Below are positions 33,787 through 34,538 of a stretch of 64,000 nucleotides of DNA, piece by piece. Origin of the DNA: Octopus sinensis (Eukaryota); assembly GCF_006345805.1 (NCBI RefSeq), contig NC_043000.1, positions 82,212,001 to 82,276,000 of the forward strand, written 5' to 3'. Numbering within the stretch: the first letter of the stretch is position 1; each line of letters begins with the position of its first letter. The position numbers are program-made.

Positions 33787-34493
33787 CATACATAAAAGTA
33801 AATAAATGGCACAACGAAGTACCGATATTTACTGGAAATAGCGACGTAATAAATACGACGCTAATGTATAGCTTCACTGCGTATGTACTAGCAAAAATGC
33901 GTGTGTGCAACATACGCAGTGAAGCTATACATTAGCGTCGTATTTATTACGTTCGCTATTTTCCAGTAAATATCGGTACTTCGTTGTGCCATTTATTTAC
34001 TTTTATGTATAATTTTACCCTCATGGGCTATCCTTTACTGGAAAGCAATACTTTCGTATTGCATTACTATTTTCATAGAAACTTCTTCACTGTTCTCGTT
34101 CTGTCAACGTTTTGGCGTCCAGTCGAGTGTATTGGCATGGATGTGGCAACATTTGAAATATTGTCGAGGTATATGTGGCTGATGAAGATAAATCAAATAT
34201 ATGTGGGCAGACATATTTTGAAGAATCTGAAACCGGTACCACATTATCCCTTTCTAGGTATTTCATTTTTCAGATGTTCTTCCTAGAGGTAAGACAATTT
34301 TTTTCATATTTGTTGCACACACGCATTTTTGCTAGTACATACGCAATGAAGCTATACATTAGCGTCGTATTTATTACGTTCGCTATTTTCCAGTAAATAT
34401 CGGTACTTCGTTGTGCCATTTATTTACTTTTATGTATAATTTTACCCTCACGGGCTATCCTTTAATGGAAAGCAATACTCTCGTATTGCATTA

Positions 34494-34538
<45 letters not shown>

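What the first reader, a model, noticed from the sequence alone, without database searches (positions are those of the whole stretch)
33788..34499. ORF-less 427-nt hammerhead element present as a 1.4-mer with 5' inversion: candidate retrozyme / circRNA-derived insertion
Seen: a canonical type I HHR (34173-34244) inside a 427-bp unit whose first 163 bp are repeated at the end. An inverted ~125-bp copy precedes it, joined by a 3-nt ACA microhomology (33910-33912), and the whole lies in (TA)n. The repeats differ at only a few positions, so the insertion looks young. Known: Penelope-like elements carry minimal type I HHRs in pseudo-LTRs and form partial tandems and inversions; metazoan non-LTR retrozymes are short HHR units that yield circular RNAs. 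Inference: this is a reverse-transcribed copy of a 427-nt circular or multimeric RNA, mobilised in trans by a Penelope RT.
Basis: partly seen in the sequence, partly recalled or inferred. Interest (0 to 1): 0.9.

Follow-up and report, generated by a model that had tools for sequence, protein, structure and literature searches.

The report
Small hammerhead-ribozyme retroelement insertion
A 712-base insertion inside a TA repeat is a protein-less 427-base mobile element that carries a hammerhead self-cleaving RNA motif and was laid down in the pattern typical of Penelope-type retrotransposons, so it is a new example of a known kind, the animal retrozymes.

Summary
Window 33788-34499 holds a 427-bp unit as 1.38 direct copies (159 of 163 repeated bases identical). 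An inverted 125-bp partial copy precedes it, joined through a 3-nt ACA overlap, and (TA)n flanks both sides.

A type I hammerhead motif with every core nucleotide lies at 34173-34244. It is the only hit of my descriptor in the window; 19 of 1000 shuffled windows gave any hit. No Rfam hammerhead model matches it, even at E<=10, and its 10.1-11.1 pair is A-U.

The unit has no ORF with a Pfam match and folds far better than shuffles (z -5.9 to -7.0). Partial tandem, inverted 5'-truncated copy, one-sided extra "tail" and (TA)n target are the published signature of Penelope-like element (PLE) integration.

Best reading: a non-autonomous, PLE-mobilised hammerhead element, that is a metazoan non-LTR retrozyme. 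The template could have been a circle, an uncleaved multimer or template-jumped monomers; this locus cannot tell. With one ribozyme copy the locus cannot release unit-length RNA by cleavage at both ends. New member of a known kind; moderate interest.

The parts
33738..33787 (.). Left part of the (TA)n microsatellite that served as the target
   Evidence: TRF row 33738-33794, period 2
33788..33912 (-). Inverted, 5'-truncated partial copy of the unit (unit positions u199 down to u73, with u1 = 34239). Its outer end at 33788 is a candidate RT start on the top strand
   Evidence: (I1-I3), 5, 24: 124 of 127 columns identical to 34311-34437
33910..33912 (.). ACA shared by the inner end of the inverted copy and the 5' end of the direct copy (3-nt microhomology junction)
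33910..34072 (+). Upstream 5'-truncated direct copy (u99-u261). It acts as a 163-bp pseudo-LTR
   Evidence: (D2), 5, 24: 159 of 163 identical to 34337-34499
34073..34499 (+). One full 427-bp unit (u262-u427 then u1-u261). It ends at the 3' boundary of the insertion, the candidate RT start on the bottom strand
   Evidence: GC 36%, no Pfam match to its longest frame
34173..34244 (+). Type I hammerhead motif: helix I 34173-34178/34239-34244; CUGAUGA 34179-34185; helix II 34186-34189/34225-34228 with inner hairpin 34193-34221; GAA 34229-34231; A-CCGG-U 34232-34237; predicted cleavage after A34238
   Evidence: not matched by Rfam
34232..34237 (+). Palindrome ACCGGU forming helix III and loop 3. It is 1 bp plus a tetraloop in a monomer, and 6 bp if two ribozyme copies pair
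   Evidence: The dimer rationale comes from Cervera and de la Pena 2014 (passages) and 2020
34438..34499 (+). 62-nt stretch (u200-u261) present at the outer end of the direct copy and absent from the outer end of the inverted copy: a candidate PLE 'tail' between two RT start sites. It contains a 7-bp hairpin at 34472-34489
   Evidence: The tail concept comes from Craig 2021 and Frangieh 2024. That this stretch is a tail is inference
34500..34536 (.). Right part of the (TA)n target microsatellite

Best explanation
This is one insertion of a non-coding 427-nt retroelement that carries a type I hammerhead ribozyme. It is a metazoan 'non-LTR retrozyme', that is a non-autonomous passenger of Penelope-like elements (PLEs).

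Proposed course, with each step marked:
1. A source elsewhere in the genome is transcribed (inferred).
2. A PLE RT/GIY-YIG protein supplied in trans cuts both strands of a (TA)n tract (inferred from the target and from published PLE behaviour).
3. Reverse transcription starts inside the RNA. It starts at unit position u261 on the bottom strand and at u199 on the top strand. The two outer ends of the insertion are shown; that they are RT start sites is inferred.
4. The bottom-strand cDNA runs back across the uncut or religated ribozyme site and on for 1.38 units to u99. The top-strand cDNA runs to u73 (the ends are shown).
5. The two cDNA ends pair through ACA and are sealed. This gives inverted copy + truncated copy + full copy (the junction is shown, the joining mechanism is inferred).

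The ribozyme has a 1-bp helix III closed by the palindrome CCGG. It should therefore cut well only when two copies pair, in a multimeric transcript. The products would be 427-nt monomers that a tRNA ligase could close into circles (by analogy with published retrozymes; not tested).

This locus has a single ribozyme copy, so cleavage alone cannot release a unit-length RNA from it.
For: - Repeat geometry and junction.
- Both repeat ends coincide with the insertion boundaries and with (TA)n. The tandem and the inversion therefore arose at integration, not later.
- The 427 period excludes an ORF in the template. There is no Pfam match to the 116-aa frame and no endless frame on the circle.
- Hammerhead: 1 descriptor hit in the window, against 19 of 1000 shuffled windows with any hit. 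The full core plus helices I and II also appear in the unconstrained minimum-energy folds.
- Unit folding: circular -121.5 kcal/mol against -83.8 +/- 5.5 for shuffles, z -6.9, 0 of 200 shuffles as good. The linear + strand gives z -5.9, 0 of 100. Twelve control 427-nt segments, drawn at random from 83 candidates in the same window, gave z +0.76 to -3.1.
- Craig 2021 (passages): PLE insertions are 5'-truncated partial tandems. They often have an adjacent inverted 5'-truncated copy and a 30-40-bp tail at one end. In Naiads, a PLE clade that lacks canonical hammerheads, they show a (TA)n bias.
- Frangieh 2024 (main text): both strands are cleaved and extended, there are two internal RT starts, and the target is AT-rich.
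- Cervera and de la Pena 2020: retrozymes are ~170-400-nt units with low GC that form self-paired circles. The axolotl HHR_Amex1 has a single-bp helix III with a palindromic tetraloop and works as a dimer.
- Li 2026: retrozyme consensus lengths run from 51 to 972 bp and derive from PLE pLTRs.
Against: - No Rfam hammerhead model matches, even at E<=10 on a 97-nt stretch.
- The 10.1-11.1 pair is A-U, and helix II carries a 35-nt extension.
- In the monomer the active fold (-13.2 kcal/mol) is well above the minimum-energy fold (-21.1), which pairs CUG of the core with CGG.
- The strong folding is not strand-specific. The minus strand gives z -7.0, so it shows self-complementarity rather than a selected RNA.
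- No GIY-YIG domain was found, and the only RT pieces are LINE-like. This comes from the 87 of 135 ORFs of 90 aa or more that I scanned.
- Only one copy of the element is available, so mobility as a family is not shown.
- The putative tail is 62 nt, against 30-40 bp published.
- (TA)n bias is published for Naiads, which lack canonical hammerheads. For hammerhead-bearing PLEs I saw only 'AT-rich'.
Confidence: 0.75

Rival explanations
1. Same element and same PLE machinery, but the template was specifically a 427-nt circular RNA. It would have been copied by rolling-circle reverse transcription.
For: - The cDNA crosses the ribozyme cleavage site without a break, and the unit is over-length at 1.38 copies.
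- The unit is predicted to be highly self-paired as a circle.
- Cervera and de la Pena 2020 found abundant circular RNAs and propose them as RT templates.
Against: - Autonomous 3-kb PLEs and non-autonomous Chlamys elements also make partial or multicopy head-to-tail insertions.
- In vitro, unprocessed RNA was the dominant substrate and ribozyme mutants did not affect insertion.
- An uncleaved multimer, or an end-to-end template jump between cleaved monomers, gives the same DNA.
- The two direct copies differ at 4 of 163 positions. This fits later mutation as well as a heterogeneous multimer.
Confidence: 0.3
2. An ordinary 5'-truncated autonomous Penelope-like element (solo pLTR), not a separate ORF-less element.
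For: Hammerheads sit in PLE pLTRs, and most PLE insertions are heavily 5'-truncated.
Against: - In an autonomous unit the sequence upstream of the pLTR is the 3' end of the ORF. Here the 163 bases that follow the ribozyme recur 427 bp upstream, with no coding remnant.
- An internal deletion of the ORF would simply make this a non-autonomous derivative, which is the best explanation.
Confidence: 0.05
3. A DNA-level rearrangement at a fragile (TA)n tract (fork stalling or template switching, or a foldback) with a chance hammerhead-like motif, or an assembly artefact.
For: - The window is very rich in microsatellites.
- Craig 2021 notes that such structures trouble assemblies.
- No Rfam match.
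Against: - The 712 bases have no other copy in the window from which they could have been duplicated.
- The motif is rare by chance (19 of 1000 shuffles anywhere in 64 kb) and sits inside the repeated unit.
- The copies differ by substitutions and indels, unlike a read chimera.
- The ends are not terminal inverted repeats.
Confidence: 0.05

Closest known systems
Metazoan non-LTR retrozymes (Cervera and de la Pena 2020, PMC7229834; Li et al. 2026 bioRxiv)
   Same: - Short non-coding unit with one type I hammerhead.
- Low GC (36%).
- Head-to-tail repetition.
- Predicted highly self-paired circle.
- Helix III of 1 bp with a palindromic tetraloop, as in axolotl HHR_Amex1.
- Size within the 51-972 bp range of Li et al., and close to the mussel units of 350-390 bp.
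   Different: - Only 1.38 units and one ribozyme here, not an array.
- No Rfam match.
- A-U at 10.1-11.1 and a long helix II.
- An adjacent inverted copy and a (TA)n target. In the sections and passages I read, these are not described for retrozymes.
Penelope-like elements and their pLTR hammerheads (Cervera and de la Pena 2014; Craig et al. 2021; Frangieh et al. 2024)
   Same: - Partial tandem (pLTR).
- Inverted 5'-truncated copy at the 5' end.
- One-sided extension.
- AT-rich or (TA)n target.
- Hammerhead a few hundred bases from the 3' end.
- Small palindromic helix III.
   Different: - No RT or GIY-YIG ORF, and a unit of 427 bp instead of about 3-4 kb.
- Helix I (6 bp) and helix II (4 bp) follow the 'canonical' metazoan layout. 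They do not follow the min-HHR layout of helix II 7-8 bp and helix I 4-5 bp.
- The extension is 62 nt, not 30-40.
Non-autonomous Chlamys PLEs such as MRC1 of Chlamydomonas (Craig et al. 2021, passage)
   Same: ORF-less elements that produce pLTRs and multicopy head-to-tail insertions, presumably using a PLE in trans.
   Different: They occur in green algae, most Chlamys lack hammerheads, and there is no sequence relation to this unit.
Newt satellite 2 repeats (cited in Cervera 2020; dimer cleavage Forster 1988, seen only in reference lists)
   Same: A ~330-bp repeat with a type I hammerhead that cleaves as a dimer.
   Different: These are long satellite arrays. This is a single dispersed insertion with an inversion.
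Twin priming of human LINE-1 (recalled, not read here)
   Same: Two target-primed cDNAs from opposite strands, joined by microhomology, give an inverted 5' part.
   Different: In LINE-1 the second primer anneals internally on the same RNA. Here both arms begin near the same 3' region of the unit, as expected for a PLE that starts at fixed internal sites on both strands.

Membership tests
Hammerhead ribozyme, type I | Conserved core: C3 U4 G5 A6 N7 G8 A9, G12 A13 A14, A15.1-U16.1, H17 not G | tested here: met
   CUGAUGA 34179-34185, GAA 34229-34231, A34232-U34237, A34238
Hammerhead ribozyme, type I | Three helices round the core, with helix I open-ended (type I topology) | tested here: met
   Helix I 6 bp, helix II 4 bp plus an inner hairpin, helix III 1 bp plus CCGG. 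Helices I and II also form in the unconstrained folds
Hammerhead ribozyme, type I | Match to a curated Rfam hammerhead covariance model | tested here: not met
   No hammerhead family at gathering score, nor at E<=10 on 1.1 kb or on 97 nt. This is a recognition test, not a structural requirement
Hammerhead ribozyme, type I | G10.1-C11.1 at the base of helix II (usual, not strictly defining; recalled) | tested here: not met
   A34186-U34228. It may lower activity
Hammerhead ribozyme, type I | Self-cleavage after position 17 | not testable with these tools
   Needs in vitro transcription of monomer and dimer
Metazoan non-LTR retrozyme | Short non-coding unit (about 170-400 nt; 51-972 bp in Li 2026) with a type I hammerhead and GC below 50% | tested here: met
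   427 bp, GC 36%, no Pfam match, no endless frame. Ranges
Metazoan non-LTR retrozyme | Tandem repetition, so that a unit is flanked by two ribozymes | tested here: inconclusive
   Only 1.38 units and one ribozyme at this locus. Arrays elsewhere in the genome could not be searched
Metazoan non-LTR retrozyme | Unit predicted to form a stable, highly self-paired circle | tested here: met
   z -6.9, 64% of bases paired. Controls gave z no lower than -3.1. The minus strand folds equally well
Metazoan non-LTR retrozyme | Expressed as linear and circular RNA | not testable with these tools
   No transcriptome is available
Metazoan non-LTR retrozyme | No LTR, PBS or PPT | not tested
   The repeat is a partial tandem, not an LTR pair. 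PBS and PPT were not searched
PLE-type insertion (non-autonomous PLE) | 5'-truncated copy preceding a full copy (pseudo-LTR) | tested here: met
   33910-34072 before 34073-34499. Definition
PLE-type insertion (non-autonomous PLE) | [quoted passage not shown] | tested here: met
   33788-33912, joined by ACA
PLE-type insertion (non-autonomous PLE) | 30-40-bp tail at only one end, lying between two RT start sites | tested here: inconclusive
   The outer ends differ by 62 nt (u199 against u261). One locus cannot define start sites
PLE-type insertion (non-autonomous PLE) | AT-rich or microsatellite target | tested here: met
   (TA)n on both sides. A target-site duplication cannot be discerned in a repeat
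PLE-type insertion (non-autonomous PLE) | Similarity of the unit to the pLTR or 3' end of an autonomous PLE of the same genome | not testable with these tools
   No eukaryotic genome collection is available. No PLE ORF is in the window
Autonomous Penelope-like element | ORF with RT and GIY-YIG endonuclease | tested here: not met
   No such domain in or beside the element. None was found in the 87 of 135 ORFs of 90 aa or more that I scanned

The most novel reading that the evidence does not exclude
This one locus may be a frozen record of two-sided target-primed reverse transcription of an ORF-less hammerhead RNA. On this reading its two outer ends (u261 and u199) are the two internal RT start sites of the helper PLE, and its ACA junction is where the two cDNAs met.

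If genome-wide copies share these ends, that would be structural evidence that PLE machinery mobilises retrozymes in this animal. So far the published evidence is correlational. The shared ends would also map the RNA sites the helper recognises.

The ribozyme would also be an active variant that current covariance models miss, with A-U at 10.1-11.1 and a 35-nt extension of helix II.
Probability: 0.3. Interest if true: 0.5.

Novelty: new member of a known kind. Interest (0 to 1): 0.35.

Why it matters
Animal retrozymes are thought to ride on Penelope-like elements. In what I read, the published support is shared ribozymes, co-occurrence and pLTR similarity in Xenopus.

Here an ORF-less hammerhead unit shows the full integration signature of a PLE: partial tandem, inverted 5'-truncated copy, one-sided extension and (TA)n target. 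That is a direct kind of evidence for the link. It also gives concrete, testable predictions for where the helper RT starts on the RNA.

The locus further shows that Rfam-based scans can miss such ribozymes. It does not change the picture of what these elements are.

Tried and rejected
- Rfam scans at three stringencies found no hammerhead. The best matches at E<=10 were miRNA-like models that fit the 43-bp inverted junction hairpin, all far below gathering score (47.4 bits against 110). I reject them as generic hairpin hits.
- I looked for further copies of the unit in the window with blastn at word sizes 9 and 7. Only the element itself matched; the two other rows had E 0.21 and 0.56.
- I looked for a PLE ORF. 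Pfam on 87 of 135 stop-to-stop ORFs of 90 aa or more gave no GIY-YIG. It gave only zf-RVT or RVT_1 pieces at 16658-16960, 18700-20088 and 59574-61445. The last matches LINE-1 ORF2p in the PDB. The 48 ORFs I did not scan mostly overlap scanned ones or microsatellites.
- I tried to name the host. An 18-base string of the flanking dispersed repeat is in no paper held. The LINE RT piece P0002 found 431 relatives, the best at 59% identity. None of those proteins was used further.
- A terminal-inverted-repeat DNA element is rejected, because the two ends are not complementary.

- A genome-wide search for circularly permuted copies.
- Supplementary files of the papers are closed. Examples are the hammerhead families and circle models in the supplements of Cervera 2020 and the element lists of Craig 2021. 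They might hold a related family or an A-U variant.

Full report
**What is there.** The window has no N. Positions 33788-34499 (712 bp) lie between two runs of (TA)n, at 33738-33787 and 34500-34536. I number the unit from the predicted ribozyme cut, so u1 = 34239.

The plus strand then reads as follows:
- 33788-33912: reverse complement of u199 down to u73.
- 33910-34072: u99-u261.
- 34073-34499: u262-u427 followed by u1-u261.

The details check out as follows:
- The direct repeat has period 427 and 159 of 163 identical bases.
- One of the four differences is a CG/TG change.
- Against 34311-34437 the inverted copy has one substitution and two single-base deletions in T runs, over 127 columns.
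- Against 33910-34010 it has only the two deletions, over 101 columns.
- The inverted and direct copies overlap by ACA at 33910-33912.
- There is no further copy of the unit in the window, even with a 7-base word search.

**The ribozyme.** The stretch 34173-34244 has every conserved hammerhead nucleotide:
- CUGAUGA, GAA, A15.1-U16.1 and A17.
- A 6-bp open helix I.
- A 4-bp helix II, continued after a 3x3 internal loop by an 11-bp hairpin.
- A helix III of one A-U pair closed by CCGG, so that ACCGGU is a palindrome.

My descriptor finds this one site on both strands of the window. It hit 19 of 1000 dinucleotide-preserving shuffles of the window, 10 of 1000 with a helix I as long as observed. 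An earlier Markov control gave 2 of 200.

Three results go against a ready-made 'canonical' label:
- No Rfam hammerhead model matches at gathering score. None matches at E<=10 on 1.1 kb or on 97 nt.
- The 10.1-11.1 pair is A-U.
- In a monomer the active fold (-13.2 kcal/mol) loses to a fold of -21.1 that pairs part of the core.

A one-pair helix III with a palindromic tetraloop is what Cervera and de la Pena describe for axolotl HHR_Amex1 and for most metazoan type I hammerheads. Those cleave poorly as monomers and well as dimers (passages; Results).

**The unit.**
- It is 36% G+C.
- Its longest stop-free frame is 116 aa, with no Pfam match.
- No frame stays open round the circle.
- As a circle it folds to -121.5 kcal/mol, against -83.8 +/- 5.5 for 200 shuffles (z -6.9, none as good).
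- The tool's own linear fold gives z -5.9 for the plus strand and z -7.0 for the minus strand, with 0 of 100 shuffles as good in each.
- Twelve control segments of 427 nt, drawn at random from 83 microsatellite-free candidates in the window, gave z between +0.76 and -3.1.

The unit is therefore unusually self-complementary, as published retrozyme circles are. Because both strands fold equally well, this does not prove selection on the plus-strand RNA.

**Surroundings.**
- The left flank 33404-33737 is a dispersed repeat of about 330 bp. It has at least six other copies or fragments in the window.
- The window is packed with microsatellites.
- Pfam on 87 of the 135 ORFs of 90 aa or more found no GIY-YIG domain. 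It found only LINE-like RT pieces, at 16658-16960, 18700-20088 and 59574-61445.
- The last of these matches LINE-1 ORF2p structures.
- The nearest RT piece is about 14 kb from the element.
- The host could not be named.

**How it most likely arose.** Craig et al. 2021 (passages) describe PLE insertions in four points:
- They are strongly 5'-truncated partial tandems, with a truncated copy before a full one.
- They often have an inverted 5'-truncated copy directly at the 5' end.
- They have a 30-40-bp tail at only one end.
- In Naiads they show a microsatellite bias, (TA)n.

Frangieh et al. 2024 (whole main text) show the following for a purified PLE protein:
- It cleaves and extends both DNA strands at AT-rich sites.
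- It starts reverse transcription at two internal RNA sites downstream of the hammerhead, and these sites delimit the tail.
- It does not need hammerhead cleavage; unprocessed RNA was the main substrate.

The locus fits this point by point. One cDNA is primed from the bottom strand at u261. It runs through the intact cut site for 1.38 units and ends at u99. A second cDNA is primed from the top strand at u199 and ends at u73. The two meet and are joined through three bases.

Both ends of the 163-bp repeat coincide with the insertion boundary or with the inversion junction. The tandem and the inversion were therefore made at integration, not afterwards.

The 427-bp period rules out an ORF in the template. 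This is a non-autonomous element, not a truncated autonomous PLE.

That the two outer ends are RT start sites, and that the 62 nt between them are a tail, is inference from a single locus. The published tail is shorter.

**What stays open.** The template crossed the ribozyme site uncut or religated. Three templates would all give this DNA:
- a circle copied by rolling reverse transcription, the model of Cervera and de la Pena;
- an uncleaved multimeric transcript;
- an end-to-end template jump between cleaved monomers.

Ordinary PLEs and non-autonomous Chlamys elements form head-to-tail insertions too. The over-length copy is therefore not evidence for a circle. I put the circle at about 0.3.

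This locus carries one ribozyme, so it cannot release a monomer by two cuts. It is a product, not a likely source.

**Comparison and novelty.** The element meets the sequence-level features of metazoan non-LTR retrozymes and of PLE-type insertions. It fails only those of an autonomous PLE (see the membership table).

PLE mobilisation of retrozymes is already proposed by Cervera and de la Pena 2020 (Discussion) and by Li et al. 2026 (Results and Discussion). Their grounds are shared hammerheads, tandem copies, co-occurrence and pLTR similarity in Xenopus. Goubert et al. 2022 also mention it (passage).

I saw no description of a retrozyme insertion with an inverted 5' copy, a tail and a (TA)n target. 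I looked in two searches:
- 66 papers held at least 2 of the 3 terms, and 25 were listed.
- 6 papers held all four terms, and 5 were listed.

I also looked in the sections and passages I read. I did not read those papers in full, and their supplements are closed, so this is not a claim of absence.

Verdict: a real feature and a new member of a known kind. It has a modest added value as structural support for the PLE link, and as an example of a hammerhead that Rfam models miss.

**Sources not read.** Lunse et al. 2017 and Forster et al. 1988 were seen only in reference lists. LINE-1 twin priming, and the usual G-C at 10.1-11.1, are recalled.

Noticed in passing
window 33404-33737 (other copies at 47151-47521, 6338-6701, 50279-50419, 22988-23096, 33233-33321, 56611-56652): A dispersed SINE-like repeat of about 330 bp lies directly left of the (TA)n tract that received the insertion. 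Its other copies in the window are 76-95% identical. The hammerhead element may have landed in the microsatellite next to this repeat.
   Followed up: partly
window 33844-33952: The junction of the inverted and direct copies forms a perfect 43-bp hairpin with a 23-nt loop. It draws sub-threshold miRNA-model matches in Rfam (best 47.4 bits against a gathering score of 110). If transcribed it could give double-stranded RNA against the element.
   Followed up: partly
window 18700-20088 (-), 16658-16960 (+), 59574-61445 (-): These are LINE-type reverse-transcriptase remnants. 18700-20088 and 16658-16960 match zf-RVT; 59574-61445 matches RVT_1 and LINE-1 ORF2p. The 462-aa piece has 431 relatives at E<=1e-10. 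The best is 59% identical, and the named ones come from a shrimp, corals, a sea anemone, a starfish and a killifish.
   Followed up: partly
window 34472-34489 and 34045-34062: A 7-bp hairpin (GCAAUAC, a 4-nt loop, GUAUUGC) sits 10 nt before the 3' boundary of the insertion. Its one difference between the two copies lies in the loop. It could be part of the site where the helper RT starts.
   Followed up: no
window 45376-46405 and throughout: Microsatellite density is very high: 79 TRF rows at score 80 or more in 64 kb. It includes a 1-kb AGAA/GAGA tract and many (TA)n, (ACAT)n and (TTA)n runs.
   Followed up: no
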